This document shows positions 4,965 through 63,232 of a DNA stretch of 63,233 bases, piece by piece. Made by a program: the position numbers and the translations under genes. Source of the stretch: an uncultured Rhodospirillaceae bacterium (lineage in GTDB: Bacteria; Pseudomonadota; Alphaproteobacteria; Rhodospirillales; UBA2165). Within the stretch, counting starts at the first letter, position 1. Every line of letters begins with the position of its first letter. The notes under the pieces were generated by a model. That model worked only from the letters and a program-made list of their open reading frames with translations. It was not told where the DNA came from and did no database searches. The DNA is taken from contig CAZXSC010000005.1 in the NCBI GenBank assembly GCA_964643045.1, forward strand, positions 1 through 63,233, written 5' to 3'.

Positions 4965-5702
4965 ATGATGACTGCGCAACTATCCTTCAAGAGTTCTGAT
5001 CAAGTCATTCCATCTCATATAGCAATTATTATGGATGGAAATGGCCGATGGGCTACATCCCGAGGCTTGCCAAGGATGGCTGGTCATAAGCGCGGTGCCG
5101 ATGCAGCAAGGGAAACAATTAAAAGTGCCATTGATTACGGGGTCAGGTATTTAACTCTTTTTTGCTTCTCGTCAGAAAACTGGAAAAGACCAGTTGACGA
5201 GGTTAATGAATTAATGAGCCTTTTGCGTGGATATCTTATTAATGAAATTGAAGAGTTGCAAAAGAATGGTGTTCGACTTCGTGTCATTGGACAGCGATTA
5301 GATTTAAGTGCTGACATTGTTGAATTAATTGAGGAGTCTGAGCGACGGACTGCAAATAACACCGTCATTGATTTAATAATAGCGCTAAGTTACGGCAGCC
5401 GCGCAGATATTACGAATGCTGCTAGAATTTTGGCAAGAAAATCAGTTATAGGGGATATAGAAGTTGATGAAATTGATGAAGAAATGATTAATAAATATCT
5501 TTCTACTGGTGATGTGCCCGATCCTGATTTACTCATACGCACAAGTGGGGAAAAGAGAATTAGTAACTTTCTACTCTGGCAATTAGCCTATTCAGAATTG
5601 GTATTTATCGACTGTTTGTGGCCCGATTTTGATGAAACAGCATTCGCCAATGCAATTTCCGAATTTAGTCGTCGTGAAAGACGTTATGGGGCGACAAAGT
5701 GA
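4965..5702 (+). CDS. uppS: Undecaprenyl diphosphate synthase
   Basis: HIAIIMDGNGRWA, FSSENWKRP and DLLIRTSGEKRISNFLLWQ motifs. Confidence 0.98.
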   Translation: MMTAQLSFKSSDQVIPSHIAIIMDGNGRWATSRGLPRMAGHKRGADAARETIKSAIDYGVRYLTLFCFSSENWKRPVDEVNELMSLLRGYLINEIEELQKNGVRLRVIGQRLDLSADIVELIEESERRTANNTVIDLIIALSYGSRADITNAARILARKSVIGDIEVDEIDEEMINKYLSTGDVPDPDLLIRTSGEKRISNFLLWQLAYSELVFIDCLWPDFDETAFANAISEFSRRERRYGATK

Positions 5703-5728
5703 GTGATTATTGAGGCGGTATCAAACTT

Positions 5729-6388
5729 ATGATAACTCGTAGTATTTCTGCATTAGTAATGTTGGTAATAGTTGTTGGTGCAATAGGGCTTGGTTCGCCT
5801 TACTTTGAAGGAATGGTCATTTTTGTCGGTATAGCAGCCACAATTGAATGGTCTAAATTAATAACTGTTAATAAGTCAGGAGTGTCTAGAATAACCTATA
5901 TTTTATTAGGCGTTGTATACATATTAACGCCTTGCTTAATACTAATGTGGTTAAGAAATAATGGCCCCAATGGAGAGTATTTTGTCATCTGGTTCCTGTC
6001 CATTATTTGGGCCACAGATATTGGGGCATATTTGTTTGGCAAATTTATTGGCGGATATAAACTAGCACCGAAAATCAGCCCGAATAAAACATGGGCAGGA
6101 TTCTTTGGAGGAGTTCTGATGGCGTTAATAGCAAGTTGGTTGGTAGATAAACATTTATATTCTTTTGCAGATTTTCTACCTCTTATTCTAGCAAGCGTTA
6201 TCTTGTCGGTGATGGGTCAAATAGGTGATTTATTTGAGTCCGTGTGTAAACGAAAATTTGAAGTTAAAGACACAGGCAAGTTGATACCGGGTCACGGAGG
6301 CATCTTAGATCGAGTTGATTCTGCCCTTCTCAGTGCACCAATTGCTGGTATTATTGCCATTGTCTTTGAAATAGGCGAAGTACCTTAA
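5729..6388 (+). CDS. cdsA: Phosphatidate cytidylyltransferase
   Basis: ISPNKTWAG and KDTGKLIPGHGGILDRVDS signatures. Confidence 0.97.
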   Translation: MITRSISALVMLVIVVGAIGLGSPYFEGMVIFVGIAATIEWSKLITVNKSGVSRITYILLGVVYILTPCLILMWLRNNGPNGEYFVIWFLSIIWATDIGAYLFGKFIGGYKLAPKISPNKTWAGFFGGVLMALIASWLVDKHLYSFADFLPLILASVILSVMGQIGDLFESVCKRKFEVKDTGKLIPGHGGILDRVDSALLSAPIAGIIAIVFEIGEVP

Positions 6389-6390
6389 TA

Positions 6391-7587
6391 ATGAAGGTGT
6401 CTCATGATCTAAATTACATTGCTAATTTGCAACGCACTGTCACGATCCTTGGTTCGACTGGCTCAATAGGTTGTAGCACTCTAAATTTGATTAGACATAC
6501 GCCTAGCAACTTTGATCTCATCGCACTTACGGGTAATCAAAATGTTAAATTATTAATTGAACAAGCTCTTCTGTTTAAACCGAAATTTGCCGTGATTGGT
6601 AATGAAACTCTCTATGGTGAACTAAAGGCTGGATTAAATGGAACCGGAGTTCAAGTTGCTGCTGGCAAAACCGCCTTGATCGAAGCAGCGCAAATGGATT
6701 CTGATATTGTAGTTGCAGGTATCGTCGGTATTGCGGGTCTATTTCCAACTATAACAGCGGTCAAAAGAGGCTCCATTGTTGCATTAGCCAATAAGGAGTG
6801 TCTAGTTTGCTCCGGAACTCTTCTACTCGATGAAATTGAATGCAGTGGGGCGACATTGATACCTATTGATTCCGAACACAACGCAATCTTCCAGGTTTTT
6901 AATTTTAATCAAGCATCAAGTGTAGATCGTTTGACACTGACAGCATCCGGGGGTCCATTTATTTTTACTTCTCTTGAAGAGATGAAAAAGGTTACGCCTT
7001 CACAAGCTACCAATCATCCAAATTGGGACATGGGTTCTAAGATTTCCGTTGATTCGGCTACTATGATGAACAAAGGATTAGAGTTAATAGAAGCATTCTA
7101 TTTGTTTCCTGTGGAAGAAAATCAAATTGAAATTATTGTCCACCCTCAATCTGTCGTTCATAGTATGGTAAGCTATAAAGATGGTTCAGTTCTTGCGCAA
7201 ATGGGAGCTCCTGACATGCGTACGCCAATTTCATATGCGTTGGCTTGGCCGCATCGAATGAGCACCCCTACCCAAAGACTTGACCTAACGGAAATAGCCG
7301 AATTAACTTTTTATAAGCCAGATCTAAATCGCTTCCCAGCTTTAATGCTAGCTCGAGATGCCTTGATATCGGGAAAAGCCATGCCTACAATATTAAACGC
7401 CGCAAATGAAATTGGTGTTGAGTATTTTCTCAATGGTAGGATAGGCTTCCTTGACATAACGCGCGTAACTGAGGAAGTATTAAATCGTGTACCAAATAGT
7501 CCTCTAAAGGAGTTAAATGATATCGCTCTTTGTGATAAAGATGCCCGTAAAATGGCAGAAGAGGTAGCTAATTCATTTGCTAAATAG
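6391..7587 (+). CDS. dxr: 1-deoxy-D-xylulose-5-phosphate reductoisomerase
   Basis: ILGSTGSIG, LANKE, PIDSEH and HPNWDMGSKISVDSATMMNKGLE motifs. Confidence 0.99.
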   Translation: MKVSHDLNYIANLQRTVTILGSTGSIGCSTLNLIRHTPSNFDLIALTGNQNVKLLIEQALLFKPKFAVIGNETLYGELKAGLNGTGVQVAAGKTALIEAAQMDSDIVVAGIVGIAGLFPTITAVKRGSIVALANKECLVCSGTLLLDEIECSGATLIPIDSEHNAIFQVFNFNQASSVDRLTLTASGGPFIFTSLEEMKKVTPSQATNHPNWDMGSKISVDSATMMNKGLELIEAFYLFPVEENQIEIIVHPQSVVHSMVSYKDGSVLAQMGAPDMRTPISYALAWPHRMSTPTQRLDLTEIAELTFYKPDLNRFPALMLARDALISGKAMPTILNAANEIGVEYFLNGRIGFLDITRVTEEVLNRVPNSPLKELNDIALCDKDARKMAEEVANSFAK

Positions 7588-51122: not shown

Positions 51123-51614
51123 ATGATAATAGTAGCAATTGGGTCAAATCTCGAATCAAATGTATACGGGTCTAGCATAGACATCTGTAACAAATCTGTC
51201 GAATTAATAAGAAATCACGGTGTAGGGGTCATTAATCAGTCTAGTTGGTATGAGACTGCCCCAATACCAGCATCTTCCCAGCCAAACTATATTAATGGAG
51301 TAGTAAGCGTTCAAACCCAATTGAGTAGCGAAGAACTTTTGTTATTGCTGCTCTCAATTGAGAAAGAAATGGGAAGGGTGCGCACATCGAGAAACGCGGC
51401 ACGGATTATAGACTTAGATTTAATATGCTATAACGACGACATTGTTAGAAGCAAAGGGCTGACTTTGCCTCATTCAAAGCTATCGGAACGCGTTTTTGTA
51501 GTTAAACCCATTTCTGAGATTGCCCCGAATTGGGAGCATCCAGTATCGGGGTTAATGGTTAATGAGATTCTACAGAAACTATCAAATCAAGAAATACAGC
51601 AGCTTTCCAATTGA
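51123..51614 (+). CDS. folK: 2-amino-4-hydroxy-6-hydroxymethyldihydropteridine diphosphokinase
   Basis: AIGSNL, YETAP, ARIIDLDLI and LPH..ERVFV motifs. Confidence 0.96.
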   Translation: MIIVAIGSNLESNVYGSSIDICNKSVELIRNHGVGVINQSSWYETAPIPASSQPNYINGVVSVQTQLSSEELLLLLLSIEKEMGRVRTSRNAARIIDLDLICYNDDIVRSKGLTLPHSKLSERVFVVKPISEIAPNWEHPVSGLMVNEILQKLSNQEIQQLSN

Positions 51615-51739
51615 TGACTTGTTTTTTCTGAAAACTGGCTTATATAGTCCCAACTGTTTTTCTGGATCAAAAACTGCGCGTGTTCAAACATTACCAAAGT
51701 TTAAATTTTAAATTTTGAACAAATTAAGGAGACCGAAGC

Positions 51740-52123
51740 ATGGCTCGTGTCACTGTTGAAGACTGTATTGAAAAAGTCGATAATCGTTTCGAACTCGTGA
51801 TGCTTGCGGCTCAACGTGCGCGAACGCTTTCCTCTGGCGCTGAATTGACGGTAGAACGAGACAATGACAAAAATTGTGTTGTTGCATTGCGAGAAATCGC
51901 CGAAGAAACACTAGATTTAGCCGAAATAGAAGAAAGCCTTGTTCAAGGCCTCCAAAAATATGTCGAGCCAGATGAGCCGGATGAAATAGAGATGGACCTC
52001 TTAGAATCGTCGGAAGATTCAGCCGAGGAAATTGCGGTAAATGTTGCCGCTACTGGAGCTTCGCCTGATGGGCCAAAAAGACCAGCATTTGATGATAATA
52101 TAGGCGAAGACGACGAGTTTTAA
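51740..52123 (+). CDS. rpoZ: RNA polymerase omega subunit
   Basis: [29 protein letters not shown]; strong AAGGAG ribosome site. Confidence 0.99.
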
Positions 52124-52174
52124 TAATTTAATTGTTACAGCAATGCGGAATTAGAATTTTATTCTTTGACAAAA

Positions 52175-53401
52175 TCATATGTGTTTAAGCATAGCGTTAG
52201 GTACGAAGTGTGTTCTGCCGATTAAATTTAACTCTTCACTTTCATGCTCAAGGCATAAAAAACGAAGCTGAATAAGTAGCCTTCCCGCCAATGTTTTCTC
52301 ATAAAACCAATCTCCCAATTGGCCATCGGAGATATTCTTTGGACGCGCCATTGCAGACTGAAAGTAAAAATGTTTAAGGTCGTCTGCGGCCAATTTTAAC
52401 GCCCGACCAATTGGTTTATCAGCGAGAAAACTTTCAATTAAGGGATTTTTAAGAAAGCCAACCAGGAGATCAACTATTTCCTCTGGTGAAAAATCGGTTA
52501 GTCCGTCTAGTCTGCGACCGTTAAATTTTTTAATCGACTCTCGATACCAAGGGTGTAAAAGCGCAATTTCCTGTTTTAGATCTATCGCTAGTGCTTCAAT
52601 ATCGCTGATATCCTTTGCGGCTATATTAAAGTTTACGGGGCAAATCCATTTGTCAATTTCATCATTACTTGCGTTGTTGTTTGGCGGCATTTCATTAAAG
52701 ACCTCGATTAATGGCCCATCACTTCGTTCAAGCAATTTTAAGGCGTCAATCAAAACACGTCGCTGAAATTCTGGCTCATTTGGAGCGCCAAAGGGTCGGC
52801 CCAATTCAAACGGCACATATAAGGCTCGTGGGGGGCGCATCCCCTCCGTATGTTTCCGGATCAAACTAATTAGCGTAGTTGGAATTCCTTCGCGTTCTAG
52901 ATAATGTGCCAGCCCGCCAACGGCGCGCGTGCATTGTGGTCAGACACCTGCCAGGAGAACTCCATTCACGTTATCGTCCTTCAATAACCCAGAGAGATCC
53001 TTGGAAACCGCTTCTTGTGCCATGGGTGGAGTAGCGCCCATAAATGCATAATGATAACTGGCAATTTCTTGGATTTCTCCGGCAACTTGAAGTTCGCGCA
53101 AACGATCAATCGGAAACACTACATTGAGATCCTGTTGAAAACCTGTGCGATCAAAATTGGTCGATACGTGGCTCATGAGAAGGTCGTTCATGTCCGTATC
53201 ATTTGGAATGATACGGTATTCACCGACGCCCGGCGTAAAAGTTCTATCGTTTCGCCGTTGTAATCCAGCAGTTGTGATCAGTGAAATTTTGCGTTGAGCA
53301 AGTGCCGGGCCTTCTGCGCAGGCAGTATCATCATATTTTGGTAATTCTTGATTAACTATCATATTGCGCTGAGGCTCAGGCATGTCTGAAAAATATACCA
53401 T
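52175..53401 (-). CDS. PrdB/GrdB-family reductase selenoprotein B-like protein, 408 aa, predicted Sec154 (TGA at 52942-52940)
   Basis: ORFs 52940..53401 and 52175..52864 share a frame and are separated only by one TGA. Read-through gives NGVLLAGV-U-PQCTRAVGGLAHYLEREGIPTTLISLIRKHTEGMRPPRALYVPF, a UxxC motif. N-terminal VFPIDRLREL..YAFMG is PrdB-like. SECIS-like hairpin follows the TGA. Confidence 0.88.
52907..52933 (-). promoter_or_regulatory. Candidate bacterial SECIS element of the PrdB-like gene
   Basis: mRNA UGA-CCACAA-UGC AC GC G CGCC[GUU]GGCG G GC UG GCA; apical loop starts with G, 18 nt after the UGA. Confidence 0.7.
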
Positions 53402-53449
53402 CTGTTTCCTTTATTCTTATTCTCAAAGGTTAATCAAGTAATCTGGTTA

Positions 53450-53483
53450 TTAACGTTCCCGATTATAGCTAATCTCACGTTAA
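53450..53483. promoter_or_regulatory. Imperfect inverted repeat in the divergent promoter between the two predicted selenoprotein genes
   Basis: TTAACGT-tccc-GATTA-tagc-TAATC-tc-ACGTTAA. Confidence 0.45.
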
Positions 53484-53581
53484 GCATGTATAATTGAGCG
53501 ATTACTCGTTTCCAACACACAGATTAAAGATGCTGAAAATGAGTTAGTTTTAGGCTATTAGTATAAGCAAGGGAATAATTC

Positions 53582-54241
53582 ATGTCACGTATTGAAATGG
53601 TAGATCTGAACGTTAACGATCAAGAGATCCAAAACATGTTTTTAGCAGTATCAGCTATGCTTGGTAGGGTTCCTAATTCATATCGAACCCTGGCCCGTTC
53701 GCCTCTGGTGGCCAAGATGTTGGTGCCGTTTAATGCTACCGTTCAGCGGGAGGGAGCTGGGAGCGTCCTTTCCACAAAACTAAAGGAAATGGTGGTTATA
53801 AAAACCAGTCATTTAAACCAGTGCAGCTATTGATTTGCTCATAATACGTCGCTTGGTCAAGCGGCAGGCATTACAGATCAACAAGTCATTGAAATAGGTA
53901 CGGATGATTATCGCTCTTCGAACTTGTTTACAGAACGGGAAAAGGCAGCGCTATTGTGGGCAACACATGTCACTTTGAATACGGCAAAAGATGATAACGG
54001 TATTTATGAACAGGTACGGAAAGAGTTTGATGAACAAGAGATGGTTGACTTAACACTGATTTGCAGTTTTTTTAATTTTTTCAATAGAGTAATGGATTCA
54101 CTTAAGGTTCCAGTAGAAGAACAGGAGGAGATAGATAAGATCAAAAATTCGGTTCGTTTAGATCCAGAAAAGGTTAAAGAGTACTTGGCAACAACTGTTA
54201 AAAATTGGCCGCTTGAGTTTCCAGATCCGAACCCGGATTAA
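53582..54241 (+). CDS. AhpD/carboxymuconolactone decarboxylase-family protein, 219 aa, predicted Sec84 (TGA at 53831-53833)
   Basis: ORFs 53582..53833 and 53924..54241 share a frame. Read-through gives KEMVVIKTSHLNQ-C-S-Y-U-FAHNTSLGQAAGITDQQV..FTEREKAALLWATHVT, placing the TGA at the second Cys of the AhpD CxxC motif. SECIS-like hairpin follows. Confidence 0.9.
53836..53870 (+). promoter_or_regulatory. Candidate bacterial SECIS element of the AhpD-like gene
   Basis: Stem GUCGCUU(53848-54)/AAGCGGC(53859-65) with loop GGUC starting 21 nt after the UGA; possible lower stem UGCU/GGCA. Confidence 0.72.
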
Positions 54242-54242
54242 A

Positions 54243-54494
54243 ATTACACCGAAGGCAGCCATCCTCTACAGTTCCCAATGAAAATTGACCTTCGCCATCA
54301 AAAAGCATCCTATGGTACTGGCGTGGAGCATGACCGTGCGCGCAATGATCTTCAAGCGCCTTAAGTTCACCAGAAGGCGCACGAAAGAAAACGATATCCT
54401 CACCGCAAATTTACCTGGCAAAGGGTCTTTCTGCTAAGATTTCGCTGGAAAGTGCACCAGCATGCCACTGCTCCTGAAGGAATCATTCTGTCAT
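54243..54494 (-). pseudogene. Rieske [2Fe-2S] oxygenase (VanA-like) N-terminal remnant with internal stops and a block swap
   Basis: Translates as MTE*FLQEQWHAGALSSEILAERPFAR*ICGEDIVFFRAPSGELKALEDHCAHGHAP-RQYHRMLFDGEGQ-FSLGTVEDGCLRC-N; two stops; catalytic domain absent; missed by the ORF track. Confidence 0.88.
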
Positions 54495-54829
54495 TTTCTC
54501 TTCCGTCCATCTCATTCACTTTACCGGTGACTGAGAACAGCAACTACCCTTACATGCAAAAAATTCAAGAAGAATAGTCTGCACGAGTTAAACCAATAAA
54601 AAGCTCTGATCAAATTGTAAACAATAAATTGAACCTTTGAACAAATTTTGCAGGGAAAATTGTGCTTAATTTAACAGGATTTGCTAATATAGTTTATTCC
54701 CTATAGAAAAAAATATTTAAAAATCAGATGCTTACAATTATAAATTCTTGGCATTAATTCTGCAGGAGTTTTCCATAGGATTTAAATCCTTGATTTTAAC
54801 AACTCTAAACAAGTGTTAGGAATATGAGT

Positions 54830-54913
54830 ATGAAATTATTACAAAAATCGGGTGAATTCACAGCGATATTAAGTTTGTTAGGATTTGCATATTTTATGTT
54901 TATTGTAAGCTAA
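54830..54913 (+). CDS. Candidate small membrane peptide (27 aa)
   Basis: MKLLQKSGEFTAILSLLGFAYFMFIVS*; AGGA 8 nt upstream; basic N-terminus plus one hydrophobic stretch; below the ORF-track cutoff; alternative ATG at 54824. Confidence 0.4.
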   Translation: MKLLQKSGEFTAILSLLGFAYFMFIVS

Positions 54914-56090
54914 CCTGTGGTCTAAAGAATATATAAATTCCTGCCGGAATTATTCCCCCAAAGATAAGAGCCATCGCCATCGGAAATGATGTGCCATCGG
55001 CATAATATCCAACTAGAATTGCCATGATGGCGCCTGCCAGTTGCCGAAAGAATCCTAAAAGGGATGAAGCGGCCCCCGCATGTGCAGGAAATGGCGTTAT
55101 GGAGCCAGCCATCGACTGTGCTGAAATCATTGCTTCGCCCATTCGCTGAATAGTATATGGCAATATAATGGCAACTACTGTAAATATACCACTTAGGGAT
55201 AATACTAGAAAGCTTAAGCTAGAAATTACGGTGATGAATGCTCCTATACCAATTACCTTGTTTATGCCAAGTTTCAAAGATAATCGGCCGCTAATAAACG
55301 AGCCAATTAGGCTTCCCAACATAACAATGGCAAATTGCCAGGCAAATGTTGTTGGTGCCTGGTTAAGTTGGCTAATCAATAAATCGGATGCTGTCGCCAG
55401 AAATCCGTAAAGGGAACTCACCGAAAATGATGCAATCAAAGTATAGATTATAAAAGATCTATTTGTTAAAATTTGTCGAAAATTATGGGTCATACTATTT
55501 ATGTTTAAGGCCTCAAGATCTTTCTTTTTTAATGTTTCTTTGAAATAGAAAATTGTGAGCAACATTACAATTCCAGCAAAACTTGCCATGAAAATAAAAA
55601 CCGAATACCAGTCGAAGTACCCAATTAGAATACTGCCAATAAACGGATTCACGATGGGCATCAAAGTTGAAACCATCCAAATATTTGATAATAATTTAGC
55701 AGCTTTTTCTCGAGCATGGAGATCTCTTACAATAGCGATCCCAATTATTCTTCCAGAAGCTGCTCCTATCCCTTGAAAGAAACGAATCAAGGACAAAGTT
55801 TCAATATTTGAAGAATAAGGTGCGAGGATTGCAGCTATGATGTATAAAAATAGACCAAAAATGACGACAGGTTTTCTTCCAAAACGATCTGAAATTGGCC
55901 CAAAGATTATTTGCCCTATTGCGGTACCCATCGCAAATATGCCTAGAGTAATGCCGACTGTTCCCGGATCGACAGCCATGGTTAGTGCAATTAGAGGCAT
56001 CGCGGGTAAGAATATATCAATGGCAACCGGGTTTAAGGAAGAAAAACCCGCAATTAATGCCACAAAAAAAACATATCTGATGGGGTTCAT
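54900..56090 (-). CDS. Bcr/CflA-type (DHA1) MFS transporter
   Basis: AIDIFLPAMP, GPISDRFGRKPV (motif A), IVRDL and AGAASSLLG; about 12 hydrophobic segments. Confidence 0.93.
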   Translation of the reverse strand: MNPIRYVFFVALIAGFSSLNPVAIDIFLPAMPLIALTMAVDPGTVGITLGIFAMGTAIGQIIFGPISDRFGRKPVVIFGLFLYIIAAILAPYSSNIETLSLIRFFQGIGAASGRIIGIAIVRDLHAREKAAKLLSNIWMVSTLMPIVNPFIGSILIGYFDWYSVFIFMASFAGIVMLLTIFYFKETLKKKDLEALNINSMTHNFRQILTNRSFIIYTLIASFSVSSLYGFLATASDLLISQLNQAPTTFAWQFAIVMLGSLIGSFISGRLSLKLGINKVIGIGAFITVISSLSFLVLSLSGIFTVVAIILPYTIQRMGEAMISAQSMAGSITPFPAHAGAASSLLGFFRQLAGAIMAILVGYYADGTSFPMAMALIFGGIIPAGIYIFFRPQVSLQ

Positions 56091-57295
56091 TGGGACCTAA
56101 AACTATTTGTAACCAGCATGCAACTGATTATAGTCAGTATACCACATCCTGCTATTGCTGCGGTCATGGGGACTGCGGTACTATCTGCAAATATTGACAA
56201 AATGGCAGATACGATGGTTGCCATTGAATTTTGTAAAAAACCTTGAAGAGTAGAAGCAGTACCTGCTCTATTTGGAAAAGGCTGCAAACAAGCTGACACC
56301 GTTTGCGGCCACAGAATAGCGAAACCCATAACAAACACTACCATTGGGCCTATTATGGCCGCTGGATGGGTTGCCTTGAATGAAACTAATATGAACATTG
56401 TAATCCCAGCACTGGCTATAAACACTGATCCCAATTGCATTAACTTTTTAGTATTTACCCGATCGATTAATTTTTCAGCTATCAATGCTGATGCCGCTTG
56501 GCATATTATAATGAGGGAAAATGTTAGACCATAAACAGATGGGCTAATGCCGAAACTCTTAATAAGGACCCCAGAAGAGGAATTGAGGTAGGCAACTATT
56601 CCTCCTAGAGCAAATCCCCCACAGATAACGTTTAGATAAAATTCGCGGTGAGAAATAATGATCGAAAAATTTCTGATTAAAACTGTAATTTTCAGAGCAT
56701 TGTAATCTTTTCTTGAAATAGTTTCTTTGAAGAAGAGTAGAAAAACTAAGAACGTTCCAATGGCGTAAATTGATATAACCCAAAAAACTGATCGCCATGA
56801 ATAATTTTCCGATAAGTAACCGCCAATGGGGGCGGAACTAATCGAGAAACACAAGCCAATAAACCACATAGTAGTAATTAGCTTTGTTAGTCTTTCTTCA
56901 TTATATAAGTCACGTGCGACTGCATTTGCCAATATTCGGCCAGAAGCGACCAGCAGCCCTTGTATAAAGCGCCAAAAAATCAATGTTTCTATATTATTTG
57001 CAAAGCCAGAACCAATGGCAGAAATTAGATAAATTATTAAGGCTGAAAGAATTATTGGTTTTCGTCCAAATCGGTCGGAAAGAGGTCCAAAAATTATTTG
57101 GCCTAACGCGTTTCCTGCAAAGATAGCTGTGAGAGAAAGTTCTACAGAGCCTGTAGAAACCTGGAAATCTTTAGCTAGTAATGGAACGGCTGGCAGAAAC
57201 ACATCAATCGCTATAGGGCCGGTCATGGTTAAAAAACCAAGGATGACAGCATAAAATATGTATGTTTTGTGCTCGGTCATAAAATGTTTATTCAT
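56087..57295 (-). CDS. Bcr/CflA-type (DHA1) MFS transporter
   Basis: AIDVFLPAVP, GPLSDRFGRKPI, VARDLY and RAGTAST motifs. Confidence 0.93.
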   Translation of the reverse strand: MNKHFMTEHKTYIFYAVILGFLTMTGPIAIDVFLPAVPLLAKDFQVSTGSVELSLTAIFAGNALGQIIFGPLSDRFGRKPIILSALIIYLISAIGSGFANNIETLIFWRFIQGLLVASGRILANAVARDLYNEERLTKLITTMWFIGLCFSISSAPIGGYLSENYSWRSVFWVISIYAIGTFLVFLLFFKETISRKDYNALKITVLIRNFSIIISHREFYLNVICGGFALGGIVAYLNSSSGVLIKSFGISPSVYGLTFSLIIICQAASALIAEKLIDRVNTKKLMQLGSVFIASAGITMFILVSFKATHPAAIIGPMVVFVMGFAILWPQTVSACLQPFPNRAGTASTLQGFLQNSMATIVSAILSIFADSTAVPMTAAIAGCGILTIISCMLVTNSFRSQ

Positions 57296-58493
57296 TCCTC
57301 AAGATTATTCTAGGAACTTTAATGACATACGCTGTAAATCCAAATAAACAGCCAATAGTCAAAACAAAGGCGACTGGCATGGCACTGCTTCCATCCCCTA
57401 AAAAACCAAGAATGATGGCTACAATTGCGCCTGTGCCTAGGTGAATAAATCCAAGCAGCGACGTGGCACGTCCGGCCATATGTTGGAAATTGGATAGCGC
57501 CCCCGCTGTCATACCAGGTATAGTTAATGCAAACCCCATTAAGAATATTGCTGATGGAACTAGTATTGAATAAATCGTTATTTGATTTGCTATTACTATA
57601 ACCATTAAAGATAACCCTCCAACCAAACTAATCGCCGTTCCAACAAGGAGAAGTTTTCTTATCCCAAGAGTGTCAACTAATTTTCCGGACCACGCCGCAG
57701 CAATAAGGTGACAAGTCATGATCGCACCAAATTGATAACCAAATGCATCCGCTGTTTGGCCAAGCACGCCAACCATCACGGGTGCGATACCGGTTAATAT
57801 TGAAAACAATCCAATATAAGCTCCCACTCCAATTAAGAGAAATGCTTGAAAATTACGCTCCAAGATAATTTCCAAAAAATTAGCTAAAAGAATATTTGGA
57901 CTTAGAGCGTGGATATCTTTCTTATTGAGGCTTTCCTCAAGAAATAAAATCACAACCAGGAGAACCATCCCAGATATGAAAGCCATTAATACAAATATTG
58001 ATTCCCAGCCAAACCATGTTGTTAGATGACCTCCAATTATTGGTCCAATAATGGGAATAGTAGATAGAACAACAAATAAATTTGCAAAAACTTTAGCGCC
58101 TTTTTTTACACTGAAAAGGTCGCGGACGACTGCACGCATAATGATCATTGTAGCACCCATTGCAAAGCCTTGGAACAACCGCATAACATAAAAGGGACCT
58201 ATGCTGTGCATTAAAGGAGATAAGAGTGATGTTATAAAATAGGCCAGCAAACCAAAAATTATAACGGGCTTTCGTCCAAATCGATCAGATAACGGCCCAT
58301 GTACTAGTTGACCAATTCCGCAGCCCACCGACAATATTCCCCACGAAATCATTATTTGGCCGACAGAGCAGTTAAGGTCGGCTGCCACGTCATTAACAGC
58401 GGGCAAGAAAGCATCCAACGCAAGAGGGCTCAATATCGCTAATCCACTTAGAATAAAAAACGTTCGTGTGTTGGAGGACAAGAATGAAGCCAT
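57288..58493 (-). CDS. Bcr/CflA-type (DHA1) MFS transporter
   Basis: ALDAFLPAV, GPLSDRFGRKPV, RAVVRDLF and MAGRATSLLG motifs. Confidence 0.93.
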   Translation of the reverse strand: MASFLSSNTRTFFILSGLAILSPLALDAFLPAVNDVAADLNCSVGQIMISWGILSVGCGIGQLVHGPLSDRFGRKPVIIFGLLAYFITSLLSPLMHSIGPFYVMRLFQGFAMGATMIIMRAVVRDLFSVKKGAKVFANLFVVLSTIPIIGPIIGGHLTTWFGWESIFVLMAFISGMVLLVVILFLEESLNKKDIHALSPNILLANFLEIILERNFQAFLLIGVGAYIGLFSILTGIAPVMVGVLGQTADAFGYQFGAIMTCHLIAAAWSGKLVDTLGIRKLLLVGTAISLVGGLSLMVIVIANQITIYSILVPSAIFLMGFALTIPGMTAGALSNFQHMAGRATSLLGFIHLGTGAIVAIILGFLGDGSSAMPVAFVLTIGCLFGFTAYVIKVPRIILRNE

Positions 58494-63142: not shown

Positions 63143-63232
63143 TGGCGGAGAGGGTGGGATTCGAACCCACGAAACGCTTGCACGCTTGCCAGTTTTCAAG
63201 ACTGGTGCCTTCAACCACTCGGCCACCTCTCC
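63143..63232 (-). tRNA. tRNA-Ser (anticodon TGA)
   Basis: GGAGAGG acceptor stem, CCAGT-CT-TGA-AA-ACTGG anticodon arm, long variable arm, GTTCGAATC T-loop and encoded CCA end; 90 nt. Confidence 0.98.

What the first reader, a model, noticed from the sequence alone, without database searches (positions are those of the whole stretch)
52175..54241. Divergent pair of hidden selenoprotein genes: a candidate stand-alone Sec redox module (PrdB-like UxxC plus AhpD-like CxxU)
Seen: four ORF-track fragments collapse into two head-to-head genes sharing a 180-bp intergenic region. Each is broken by a single in-frame TGA inside a redox motif (U-P-Q-C and C-S-Y-U) and followed by a hairpin with a G-starting apical loop. 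Two such coincidences side by side are hard to explain as random nonsense mutations. Established: PrdB/GrdB selenoproteins act in clostridial D-proline/glycine reductase complexes with proprotein partners, and AhpD-family proteins are dithiol reductants. No prdA or grdA/C/D/E partner is in this window. Inference: the AhpD-like protein may re-reduce the PrdB-like enzyme in an undescribed two-component selenium-dependent reductase or detoxification system in an alphaproteobacterium.
Basis: partly seen in the sequence, partly recalled or inferred. Interest (0 to 1): 0.9.

Follow-up and report, generated by a model that had tools for sequence, protein, structure and literature searches.

The report
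Two adjacent known-family selenoprotein genes
Two neighbouring genes in a marine alphaproteobacterium each use a UGA codon for selenocysteine; both belong to selenoprotein families already catalogued in ocean surveys, but their linkage, which recurs in relatives, appears not to have been described.

Summary
Gene A (52178-53401, minus strand, 408 aa) has one in-frame TGA in a V-U-P-Q-C motif. Gene B (53582-54238, plus strand, 219 aa) has one in a C-S-Y-U motif. They lie head to head, 180 bp apart.

Both are genuine selenoprotein genes:
- The genome holds selA, selB, selD and tRNA-Sec.
- All 89 A-like and 12 B-like copies in 80 related loci carry TGA at these sites, and Cys forms exist.
- B's hairpin has an invariant GGUC loop and compensatory pair changes.
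- A's hairpin shows the strongest synonymous-site conservation in the gene.
- Contigs from other samples keep both TGAs.

Neither family is new. "Proline reductase PrdB" (UxxC) and "AhpD-like" (CxxU) are among the commonest marine selenoproteins in the 2005 and 2008 ocean surveys.

A is not D-proline reductase. It scores far below the PrdB model cut-off, has an extra helical C-terminal domain, and no PrdA/GrdE or GrdA was found.

The linkage is the new part. In 15 of 21 B-holding genomes of the order, an AhpD-like gene sits within about 2 kb of a PrdB-like gene, in three arrangements, often with an HxlR-type regulator. However, 73 of 80 A loci lack B. The partnership is therefore lineage-specific, and that B reduces A is untested.

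The parts
52178..53401 (-). Gene A: PrdB/GrdB-superfamily selenoprotein, 408 aa. It has a Rossmann-like N-terminal domain (about residues 32-235), a low-confidence linker (243-263) and a helical C-terminal domain (267-408).
   Evidence: frame; Pfam GRDB PF07355, 36.8 bits against cut-off 22; TIGR04483 PrdB 98.1 bits against cut-off 300; TIGR01918 53.1 against 65.45; AlphaFold2 model, mean pLDDT 86.5.
52940..52942 (-). In-frame TGA read as selenocysteine 154 of gene A (motif V-U-P-Q-C; U154 and C157 sit at the N-terminal end of helix 155-170).
   Evidence: TGA at this site in 89 of 89 A-like copies in loci L012-L091, with motif [VI]-U-P-x-C-[TK]. Cys at this site in P0015, P0043, P0083 and P0076; contigs of runs X3 and X4 cover the site with 0 differences; helix position.
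52907..52933 (-). SECIS-like hairpin of gene A. In this copy the 5' arm spans positions 10-21 after the U of UGA, the loop is GUU (GUG in the consensus of relatives), and the 3' arm spans positions 25-36.
   Evidence: fold. (near-invariant nucleotides across 90 copies). (third-position entropy 0.32, 0.32 and 0.38 bits at codons 158-160, the three lowest of 82 conserved degenerate columns; mean elsewhere 1.60; Mann-Whitney p = 0.005). No covariation was found.
52175..52177 (-). TGA used as the ordinary stop codon of gene A.
   Evidence: read-through past it adds only 8 codons. Homologues end at the same place.
53402..53581 (.). 180-bp divergent intergenic region with AGGA- and GGGA-type ribosome-binding sites before both start codons. 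One promoter-like match for gene A lies at 53588-53560.
   Evidence: sequence. (promoter-like site, 10 of 12 matches; promoter-like sites in the region are not above chance: 6 found against 7.2 expected).
53582..54238 (+). Gene B: AhpD-like / carboxymuconolactone-decarboxylase-family selenoprotein, 219 aa.
   Evidence: (Pfam CMD PF02627, 36.8 bits against 23). (TIGR00778 AhpD core 29.5 against 27.8; TIGR01926 75.1 against 81.8). (solved relatives: CMD/AhpD-family proteins and debrominase Bmp8).
53831..53833 (+). In-frame TGA read as selenocysteine 84 of gene B (motif C-S-Y-U).
   Evidence: TGA in 44 of 45 distinct B-like copies and TGC in one. Cys in 10 of 24 aligned database homologues; W in 8, including the window's own protein, which shows a gene caller read TGA as Trp; run X4 record 21 covers 53751-53954 with 0 differences.
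53848..53865 (+). SECIS hairpin of gene B: 7-bp stem (positions 18-24 with 29-35 after the U of UGA) and apical loop GGUC.
   Evidence: 99.7% of 287 cells paired; 3 of 7 pairs have changes on both sides (29 cells); 0 of 500 shuffles reach the observed pairing or covariation; loop GGTC in 44 of 44 TGA copies; the single TGC (Cys) copy lacks the hairpin sequence.

Best explanation
These are two genuine selenocysteine-decoding genes of two already catalogued marine selenoprotein families.

Gene A is a stand-alone member of the PrdB/GrdB superfamily (UxxC). It is the family that ocean surveys list as 'proline reductase PrdB', but it is not D-proline reductase. Gene B is an 'AhpD-like' CMD-family protein (CxxU).

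Shown: in each gene, UGA is followed by an in-frame hairpin under RNA-level constraint, and the genome holds selA, selB, selD and tRNA-Sec.

Inferred: SelB with tRNA-Sec recodes each UGA at that hairpin. The head-to-head arrangement is the reduced form of a gene cluster conserved in the organism's family: [HxlR-type regulator, B] divergent from [X, B2, A2, A]. X is a gene of unknown function, B2 is a paralogue of B and A2 a paralogue of A. Losing the regulator, X, B2 and A2 would leave B and A head to head.

Inferred mechanism: both proteins are thiol/selenol oxidoreductases. A's Sec154 acts as the nucleophile and Cys157 resolves it to a selenenylsulfide. In this lineage the CxxU pair of the AhpD-like protein exchanges reducing equivalents with A. 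This would parallel GrdB-GrdA and PrdB-PrdC, where a UxxC B protein works with a CxxU partner. The HxlR-type regulator in relatives points to an oxidant or electrophile stress response.

My odds: genuine selenoproteins of known families 0.95; functional link between A and B in this lineage about 0.5; B as the direct reductant of A about 0.25.
For: Sec machinery: selA 594.7 bits and selB 442.9 bits lie side by side on contig C113. selD scores 398.5 bits on C96 and itself contains one TGA. tRNA-SeC(tca) is on C57.

Sec/Cys alignment: 80 of 80 related loci have a stop at U154 and Cys at 157. The codon is TGA in 89 of 89 A-like and 12 of 12 B-like copies. Cys forms of both proteins exist.

SECIS: B has an invariant GGUC loop and compensatory pairs, and the only Cys form lacks the hairpin. 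A has the gene's three lowest synonymous-site entropies in the 5' arm.

Independent DNA: contigs of a second sample and of a second study show no difference at either TGA.

[quoted passage not shown] The Sargasso Sea survey lists both.

Not PrdB proper: TIGR04483 scores 98.1 against a cut-off of 300. No PF09338 or PF04723 was found in the genome. The protein has an extra C-terminal helical domain.

Linkage: an A-like gene lies within about 2.2 kb of B in 15 of 21 B-holding genomes among 201 of the order. These 15 fall in 4 families and show 3 arrangements: B divergent from A directly; B divergent from X-B2-A2(-A), with B2 immediately upstream of a PrdB-like gene on the same strand; and A followed by B on the same strand. 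An HxlR-like gene lies in the cluster in L012, L013, L074 and L096.

UxxC/CxxU precedent: the 2026 review's passages on grdA-grdB and prdB-prdC.
Against: A occurs without any AhpD-like gene within 4 kb in 73 of 80 related loci. Its neighbours outside one clade are heterogeneous.

In the order, at least 11 genomes have A but no B-type gene at the thresholds used.

A same-genus genome (G182) keeps B and B2 but holds only a 36-residue remnant of A. So neither protein strictly needs the other.

In G135 and G003 the closest orthologues of the window's A (73% and 72% identity) lie on other contigs, away from B.

The linked genomes are kin, mostly one family, so the counts overstate independence.

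Selenoprotein genes may cluster for co-regulation or joint transfer without any direct interaction.

A's hairpin shows no covariation.

No experiment or interaction prediction supports electron transfer between A and B.
Confidence: 0.8

Rival explanations
1. Both are genuine selenoproteins, but the adjacency has no mechanistic meaning. It would be inherited synteny within one bacterial order, or a 'selenoprotein island' kept together by co-regulation or joint transfer. Each protein would work with general reductants such as thioredoxin, glutathione or lipoamide.
For: 73 of 80 A loci lack an AhpD-like neighbour. G182 retains B and B2 after losing A. In another clade (17 alphaproteobacterial loci between L022 and L043, plus L079), A sits next to an Ndh-SelD fusion gene, which shows that selenium-related genes cluster in other ways too. 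B-type genes are rare outside the order (3 of 401 genomes of the class), so the linked cases are mostly kin.
Against: Three different arrangements keep an AhpD-like gene immediately beside a PrdB-like gene. These include B2 immediately upstream of a PrdB-like gene on the same strand, and A followed by B 46-300 bp apart, in 4 families. Paralogue pairs B/B2 and A/A2 are retained together.
Confidence: 0.4
2. Gene A is the B subunit of a real D-proline, glycine, sarcosine or betaine reductase whose partners are encoded elsewhere.
For: Pfam GRDB hit. The best NCBIfam hit is PrdB. The marine surveys label the family 'proline reductase PrdB'.
Against: TIGR04483 scores 98.1 bits against a cut-off of 300, and TIGR01918 scores 53.1 against 65.45. 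No PF09338 (PrdA/GrdE) or PF04723 (GrdA) match in a 97.3%-complete assembly (the controls were silent, so this is weak). The architecture differs, with an added C-terminal helical domain of about 140 residues. Neighbourhoods never showed prd or grd genes in the 20 neighbours scanned or in the clusters.
Confidence: 0.03
3. The TGAs are nonsense mutations (pseudogenes), assembly errors, or TGA read as tryptophan under another genetic code.
For: Some database entries show W at the site in B homologues. Most database entries of A are truncated at the TGA.
Against: TGA is conserved at exactly these sites in 89 of 89 and 44 of 45 copies across several phyla. Cys, never Trp, is encoded by a sense codon at the site in homologues. 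Both halves of each gene are conserved. Gene A also uses TGA as its stop. Independent contigs agree. The W entry P0123 is the window's own sequence, whose codon is TGA.
Confidence: 0.01

Closest known systems
Marine 'Proline reductase PrdB' selenoprotein family of the Sargasso Sea and GOS surveys (Zhang et al. 2005, PMC1088965; Zhang and Gladyshev 2008, PMC2398784; passages and tables read)
   Same: pfam07355 domain, a UxxC motif with Sec first, high abundance in marine samples and few Cys homologues. Gene A fits this description, and hundreds of database homologues are truncated at the same TGA.
   Different: Nothing essential; gene A is a member. In the passages I read, the surveys treat the family as D-proline reductase and do not discuss the C-terminal domain, the missing PrdA, or AhpD-like neighbours.
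D-proline reductase PrdB (TIGR04483) and glycine/sarcosine/betaine reductase protein B (TIGR01917/TIGR01918) of amino-acid-fermenting anaerobes
   Same: Homologous domain (residues 33-226 align to positions 26-220 of the 238-position PrdB model). UxxC selenocysteine motif. Known to work with a CxxU selenoprotein partner (GrdA; PrdC form 1), according to the 2026 review.
   Different: Scores are far below the family cut-offs. No pyruvoyl proprotein (PrdA/GrdE) or GrdA was found. There is an extra helical C-terminal domain. The host is a marine alphaproteobacterium and the neighbourhood holds no prd or grd genes.
'AhpD-like' selenoprotein family (COG2128 / TIGR01926, CxxU), first reported from the Sargasso Sea
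   Same: CMD/AhpD core domain, a CxxU motif, marine abundance and widespread Cys homologues. Gene B fits.
   Different: TIGR01926 scores 75.1 bits, just below its 81.8 cut-off. No function has been shown for this subfamily. M. tuberculosis AhpD, a lipoamide-dependent reductant of AhpC (recalled, not from a call), is only a distant model.
Known selenoprotein operons (grdA-grdB, prdB-prdC, Prx/SelW-like, Prx-like/AhpD-like) listed in the 2026 review PMC13188914
   Same: Co-localised selenoprotein genes with complementary UxxC and CxxU motifs.
   Different: A PrdB-like/AhpD-like pairing is not in that list (passages). It is also not among the neighbouring selenoprotein pairs reported from GOS reads. 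The relatives' cluster holds up to four selenoprotein genes (B, B2, A2, A).

Membership tests
Bacterial selenoprotein gene (Sec decoding) | Genome encodes selA, selB, selD and tRNA-Sec | tested here: met
   All three proteins score over their curated cut-offs. ARAGORN finds tRNA-SeC(tca) on C57.
Bacterial selenoprotein gene (Sec decoding) | In-frame UGA aligned with Cys (or UGA) in homologues, with conservation on both sides | tested here: met
Bacterial selenoprotein gene (Sec decoding) | SECIS hairpin just downstream of the UGA with a conserved G in the apical loop | tested here: met
   Gene B: covariation, 0 of 500 shuffles; GGUC loop in 44 of 44. Gene A: (synonymous-site constraint), but no covariation. 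The spacing rule and the loop-G rule are partly recalled; a figure legend in PMC1088965 mentions conserved loop guanosines.
Bacterial selenoprotein gene (Sec decoding) | Selenium actually incorporated into the protein | not testable with these tools
   Needs 75Se labelling or mass spectrometry.
Pfam GRDB (PF07355) superfamily | Score over the gathering cut-off | tested here: met
   36.8 bits against 22 (residues 33-151).
D-proline reductase PrdB (TIGR04483 equivalog) | Score over the curated cut-off | tested here: not met
   98.1 bits against 300.
D-proline reductase PrdB (TIGR04483 equivalog) | Pyruvoyl proprotein partner PrdA (PF09338) in the genome | tested here: inconclusive
   no match in the 97.3%-complete assembly. 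The family rang in none of the control genomes, so the search is unvalidated.
Glycine/betaine/sarcosine/D-proline reductase selenoprotein B subfamily (TIGR01918) | Score over the curated cut-off | tested here: not met
   53.1 bits against 65.45. No GrdA (PF04723) was found (controls silent).
AhpD / CMD family (PF02627, TIGR00778 core domain) | Score over the cut-offs and a redox CxxC-type motif in the core | tested here: met
   (36.8 against 23). (TIGR00778 29.5 against 27.8). The motif C81-x-x-U84 aligns with CxxC in Cys homologues.
Peroxidase-related enzyme subfamily TIGR01926 (the 'AhpD-like' selenoprotein of the reviews) | Score over the curated cut-off | tested here: not met
   75.1 bits against 81.8, a narrow miss. 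It is the best-scoring NCBIfam model over residues 2-180.
   Met within the order (15 of 21 B-holding genomes, 3 arrangements). Not met elsewhere (7 of 80 A loci; 0 of 2 Cys-form B genomes of the class).
Biochemistry is needed.

The most novel reading that the evidence does not exclude
A lineage-specific, selenium-dependent redox cluster of marine Rhodospirillales-like alphaproteobacteria. In it, a stand-alone PrdB-like UxxC selenoenzyme would use an AhpD-like CxxU selenoprotein as its dedicated partner, either as reductant or as acceptor. This would be a third version of the B-protein/CxxU-partner logic of glycine reductase (GrdB-GrdA) and proline reductase (PrdB-PrdC). It would run without a pyruvoyl subunit, under an HxlR-type redox regulator, and would serve detoxification of an oxidant or electrophile rather than amino-acid fermentation. 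The window would carry the minimal two-gene form of a cluster that in relatives holds four selenoprotein genes.
Probability: 0.25. Interest if true: 0.65.

Novelty: new variant of a known kind. Interest (0 to 1): 0.45.

Why it matters
The 'PrdB' family is among the most abundant selenoproteins in surface-ocean surveys, yet its label as D-proline reductase does not fit the organisms that carry it. They have no PrdA, the protein has a different architecture, and the gene mostly stands alone.

A conserved neighbour gives a first handle on its function. The neighbours here are an AhpD-like selenoprotein, a second pair of paralogues, and an HxlR-type regulator. They yield a simple, testable hypothesis: selenol/thiol exchange between a UxxC protein and a CxxU protein.

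There is also an annotation point. Most database entries of this family are truncated at the UGA, or carry Trp there, so the proteins are systematically mis-annotated.

Tried and rejected
- Rfam scan of 51500-55000 at E up to 10 gave only a chance snoRNA match. No curated family matched either hairpin at E up to 10.
- RNAalifold and pair counting on A's hairpin gave no covariation. The stem is nearly invariant, so I used synonymous-site entropy instead.
- Foldseek against the PDB found nothing at E <= 0.001. The VIA-align wide search gave only generic Rossmann-like matches (best Z 8.2, LacI/SDR types, residues 32-250). The C-terminal domain was barely tested. A sequence search of the PDB with A gave nothing meaningful.
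- Neighbour clustering around A: the apparent conserved neighbours (Ndh-SelD fusion, Mo-hydroxylase, GST) all come from one clade, alphaproteobacterial loci between L022 and L043, with L079, L037 and L089 as single additions. Several 'clusters' were antisense ORFs over A in GC-rich genomes and were ignored. The 20 neighbours scanned from 15 other loci showed no common partner.
- Gene X of the relatives' cluster has no Pfam hit. The Atlas suggests NIPSNAP/EthD-like proteins; this is a lead only. Neither X, nor the HxlR gene, nor B2, nor A2 was found in the window's genome with these queries.
- Promoter and terminator scans were at chance level.
- Literature: a search for 'PrdB-like', 'GrdB-like', 'PrdB homolog(s)' and 'selenoprotein B-like' found 2 unrelated papers. 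A search for selenoprotein, AhpD-like and PrdB found 27 papers, 20 listed. I read passages of four of them. None mentions a PrdB/AhpD-like pair. Supplementary tables were not seen and might list such neighbours.
- An RNA-library contig (run X7) covers 53896-54122 of gene B only. This does not show transcription.
- Interaction prediction: no result (see below).
Full report
**Observation.** Under table 11, the region holds four ORF fragments. Reading TGA through joins them into two frames.
- Gene A runs 52178-53401 on the minus strand and encodes 408 aa. It has one internal TGA at 52940-52942 (U154, V-U-P-Q-C) and uses TGA again as its stop at 52175-52177.
- Gene B runs 53582-54238 on the plus strand and encodes 219 aa. 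It has one internal TGA at 53831-53833 (U84, C-S-Y-U).
- The genes diverge from a 180-bp spacer, and both have Shine-Dalgarno-like sequences.
- Each TGA is followed by a hairpin with a G-initial apical loop: GUU 18 nt after the UGA in A, and GGUC 21 nt after it in B.
- Taken alone these folds are not remarkable (z = -0.57 and -1.73), so the case rests on comparison with relatives.

**Are they selenoprotein genes?** The window's assembly has 3.13 Mb in 215 contigs, is 97.3% complete and has 42% G+C.
- selA (594.7 bits) and selB (442.9 bits) lie side by side on contig C113.
- selD (398.5 bits) is on C96 and itself contains one TGA.
- tRNA-SeC with anticodon tca is on C57.

A scan of species-representative genomes found 594 relatives of A, and the best 80 loci (L012-L091) were kept.
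- All 80 have a stop at U154 and Cys at position 157.
- The codon is TGA in all 89 A-like copies, tandem paralogues included, with motif [VI]-U-P-x-C-[TK].
- These loci come from Alphaproteobacteria, Desulfobacterota, and Gamma- and Betaproteobacteria.
- In the protein database, 116 of the 120 best hits to A are fragments of 224-263 residues covering only the part after the Sec site, as expected for genes cut at UGA by gene callers.
- The four longer hits (P0015, P0043, P0083, P0076) have Cys at the site.

For B, 24 rows were aligned, including the query, which carries C as the stand-in for U.
- Ten of the 23 database homologues have Cys at the site.
- Eight have Trp, one has Leu and two have Ser.
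- Two are fragments that start just after the site.
- One of the Trp entries is the window's own protein, whose codon is TGA. The Trp is therefore an artefact of a caller that read TGA as Trp.
- In genome loci, 44 of 45 distinct B-like copies have TGA and one has TGC.

**SECIS evidence.** For B, I aligned 44 TGA-containing copies (A5).
- They show an invariant GGUC loop on a 7-bp stem with 99.7% of cells paired.
- Three pairs carry changes on both sides (U-A to C-G in 13 rows; G-C to A-U in 7; U-G to A-U or G-C in 9).
- None of 500 shuffles reached the observed pairing or covariation, and sliding the partner collapses pairing to 20-53%.
- The single Cys-encoding copy does not have the hairpin sequence, which serves as a natural control.

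For A, the 30 nt after the UGA are almost invariant across 90 copies from genomes of very different composition. Covariation therefore cannot be seen. I tested synonymous-site entropy instead.
- I used 86 full-length copies. Four of the 90 were dropped because their tblastn match did not span residues 3-380.
- The three lowest third-position entropies among 82 conserved degenerate codons are codons 158, 159 and 160, the 5' arm of the hairpin. They are 0.32, 0.32 and 0.38 bits, against a mean of 1.60 in the 75 columns outside the zone.
- The seven columns in the zone average 0.99 bits (Mann-Whitney p = 0.005).

**Independent DNA.** Contigs of public marine metagenome runs were laid on 52100-54300.
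- A second sample of the probable source study (X3, record 11, 52803-53062) shows no difference at A's TGA.
- A run of a different study (X4, records 19 and 21, 52913-53121 and 53751-53954) shows no difference at either TGA.
- The only listed difference is at 52701.
- Short contigs of other organisms match the stretch at 90% or more only at the two SECIS segments, which fits their nucleotide-level conservation.

**What the proteins are.**
- A hits Pfam GRDB (36.8 bits, cut-off 22).
- A's best NCBIfam model is PrdB at 98.1 bits against a cut-off of 300. The broader 'selenoprotein B' subfamily model scores 53.1 against 65.45. A therefore belongs to the superfamily but not to either curated family.
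- An AlphaFold2 model from 33 aligned sequences has mean pLDDT 86.5 and pTM 0.84. It shows a Rossmann-like alpha/beta domain (about residues 32-235), with U154 and C157 at the N-terminal end of helix 155-170. That is the usual place for a redox-active CxxC-type pair. A low-confidence linker (243-263) and an all-helical domain (267-408) follow.
- No solved structure is a specific relative.
- No PrdA/GrdE (PF09338) or GrdA (PF04723) was found in the genome. These searches also rang in none of the control genomes, so the negative is weak.
- B hits Pfam CMD and the AhpD core-domain model. It narrowly misses TIGR01926 (75.1 against 81.8).
- B's solved relatives are uncharacterised CMD/AhpD proteins and the thiol-dependent debrominase Bmp8.

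**What is already known.** I read passages and tables of four papers.
- The Sargasso Sea selenoproteome paper (PMC1088965) lists 'Proline reductase PrdB' (UXXC, 42 sequences). It also lists 'AhpD-like protein' (CXXU, 27 sequences), which was new at that time.
- So the two genes are not hidden novelties.
- The 2026 review (PMC13188914, 'Selenoprotein operon' section) lists grdA-grdB, prdB-prdC, frhA-frhD-hdrA, Prx/SELENOW-like, Prx-like/AhpD-like, SAO and Tso.
- Neither paper mentions a PrdB-like/AhpD-like pair. A term search for PrdB-like or GrdB-like proteins found nothing relevant. Supplements were closed and might bear on this.

**Is the pairing conserved?** From A's side it is rarely so. 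Only 7 of the 80 A loci have a B-like gene within 4 kb.

From B's side, within the organism's own order, it usually is.
- B-type genes (E <= 1e-30) occur in 21 of 201 sampled genomes, and A-type genes (E <= 1e-20) in 30 of 201.
- In 15 of the 21, a PrdB-like gene lies within about 2.2 kb of B on the same contig. These are G000, G135, G145, G190, G048, G087, G165, G155, G101, G125, G069, G114, G017, G003 and G013. G013 is counted, where A is cut by the contig end.
- The other six are G198 (contig break after B2), G182 (only a 36-residue remnant of A's C-terminus next to B2), G042, G012 and G065 (not adjacent, or on different contigs), and G178 (a Cys-form B with no A found).
- The 15 fall in four families, but 12 are in the window's own family, so they are not independent.

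Three arrangements occur.
- (i) The window: B divergent from A across 180 bp.
- (ii) The common one in the family: B, often preceded by an HxlR-type regulator gene, diverges from an operon-like row X-B2-A2-(A). B2 is a second AhpD-like selenoprotein (about 31% identical to B, C-A-Y-U motif, TGA) lying directly upstream of a PrdB-like gene on the same strand. A2 is a paralogue about 45% identical to A (V-U-P-S-C). X is a 245-aa protein without a Pfam hit. This is seen in L012, L013, L019, L021, L040 and L096.
- (iii) A followed by B on the same strand, 46-300 bp apart, in L074/G017 and G013, with an HxlR-like gene upstream in L074.

The window's A is the orthologue of the distal A of arrangement (ii): 76% identity to the G145 copy and 62% to G048 and G087. 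X, HxlR, B2 and A2 were not found in its genome. The head-to-head pair therefore looks like the reduced form of the four-selenoprotein cluster. This is an inference.

Outside the order, B-type genes are rare. They occur in 3 of 401 genomes of the class, including the window's own, and the other two are Cys forms. In those two, A is 155 kb away (G332) or not found (G484).

**Evidence against an obligate partnership.**
- A stands alone in most lineages, with heterogeneous neighbours.
- One alphaproteobacterial clade places A beside an Ndh-SelD fusion gene, a GST and a molybdenum hydroxylase instead.
- G182 lost A but kept B and B2.
- In G135 and G003 the closest orthologue of the window's A lies away from B.

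**Most likely working.**
- Shown: two UGA codons are conserved across relatives and each is followed by a hairpin under RNA-level constraint, in a genome with the complete Sec machinery. Both proteins carry the Sec in a CxxC-type redox motif that is Cys in some homologues.
- Inferred: SelB with tRNA-Sec recodes each UGA at its hairpin. A is a stand-alone selenol/thiol oxidoreductase in which Sec154 attacks a substrate and Cys157 resolves the adduct to a selenenylsulfide. Without a pyruvoyl subunit it cannot work as proline or glycine reductase does.
- Inferred: in this lineage the AhpD-like CxxU protein exchanges reducing equivalents with A. This fits the repeated side-by-side placement, the retention of paralogue pairs, and the precedent that B-type UxxC proteins work with CxxU partners (GrdA, PrdC). 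The HxlR-type regulator suggests control by oxidants or electrophiles; the properties of that regulator family are recalled, not taken from a call.
- My odds for a functional link are about one half, and for B as the direct reductant of A about one quarter. The main rival is that the genes are merely co-inherited or co-regulated selenoprotein genes.

**Verdict.** The value lies in two points:
- The abundant marine 'PrdB' is not D-proline reductase by the tests possible here.
- In one marine alphaproteobacterial order it is linked to AhpD-like selenoproteins in a cluster that I did not find described.

Noticed in passing
own genome G000, contig C96:1998-2924 (locus L009): The selenophosphate synthetase gene selD itself contains one in-frame TGA, so SelD is a selenoprotein in this organism. 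selA and selB lie side by side on C113, and tRNA-SeC is on C57:6650-6745.
   Followed up: partly
own genome G000, contig C122 (locus L093:1111-2028, minus strand): A second, shorter PrdB/GrdB-like selenoprotein gene (305 aa, motif L-U-P-V-C, one internal TGA, 28% identical to gene A). It lies next to a 318-aa ORF and a 443-aa ORF that I did not identify.
   Followed up: partly
own genome G000, contig C15:2494-2877: Another distant AhpD/CMD-like match (27% identity to B) with a stop inside the match; possibly a further CxxU selenoprotein. Three Cys-type paralogues lie on C129, C60 and C32.
   Followed up: no
window 54242-54899: About 660 bp between the end of gene B and the convergent MFS transporter gene hold no ORF of 60 aa or more and gave no Rfam match. 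In relative L013 the MFS gene ends only about 60 bp from B. This may be a decayed gene or a regulatory spacer.
   Followed up: partly
window 54900-58493: Three ORFs of about 400 aa (396, 402 and 401 aa) in tandem on the minus strand, just downstream of gene B. From the translations of the first two they look like MFS-type transporter genes; no family scan was run. A homologous MFS-like gene also flanks B in L013.
   Followed up: no
17 alphaproteobacterial loci between L022 and L043, plus L079 (for example L043:5245-7593, minus strand): In one alphaproteobacterial clade and one gammaproteobacterial MAG, the PrdB-like gene is followed by a convergent gene for a pyridine-nucleotide-disulfide oxidoreductase fused to SelD (the Ndh-SelD fusion noted in the GOS paper). 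In most of the alphaproteobacterial loci a GST gene and a molybdenum hydroxylase gene lie nearby.
   Followed up: partly
L031, L032, L035, L058, L059, L064 (second copy at about 5230-6470); L012, L015, L040 (second copy upstream): Tandem duplicates of the PrdB-like selenoprotein gene (44-50% identical to A), each with its own TGA and SECIS.
   Followed up: partly
G182:C3:30058-30165 (same genus): Only a 36-residue remnant of the C-terminus of the PrdB-like gene remains next to B2, while B and B2 are intact. This looks like a recent deletion of A.
   Followed up: partly
database proteins P0123-P0133 and P0150; most hits: Public gene calls of these families are systematically wrong. A-family entries are cut at the UGA, and B-family entries are either cut or carry Trp at the Sec site because a caller read TGA as Trp.
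   Followed up: yes
L047:1685-3976 (plus strand): In one Desulfobacteraceae MAG, the gene directly upstream of the PrdB-like gene on the same strand encodes a VTT (DedA) domain fused to a glutathione/mercuric-reductase-type flavoprotein disulfide reductase. This is a possible alternative reductant in that lineage.
   Followed up: no
window 63143-63232: tRNA-Ser(tga) gene at the very end of the window, on the minus strand.
   Followed up: no
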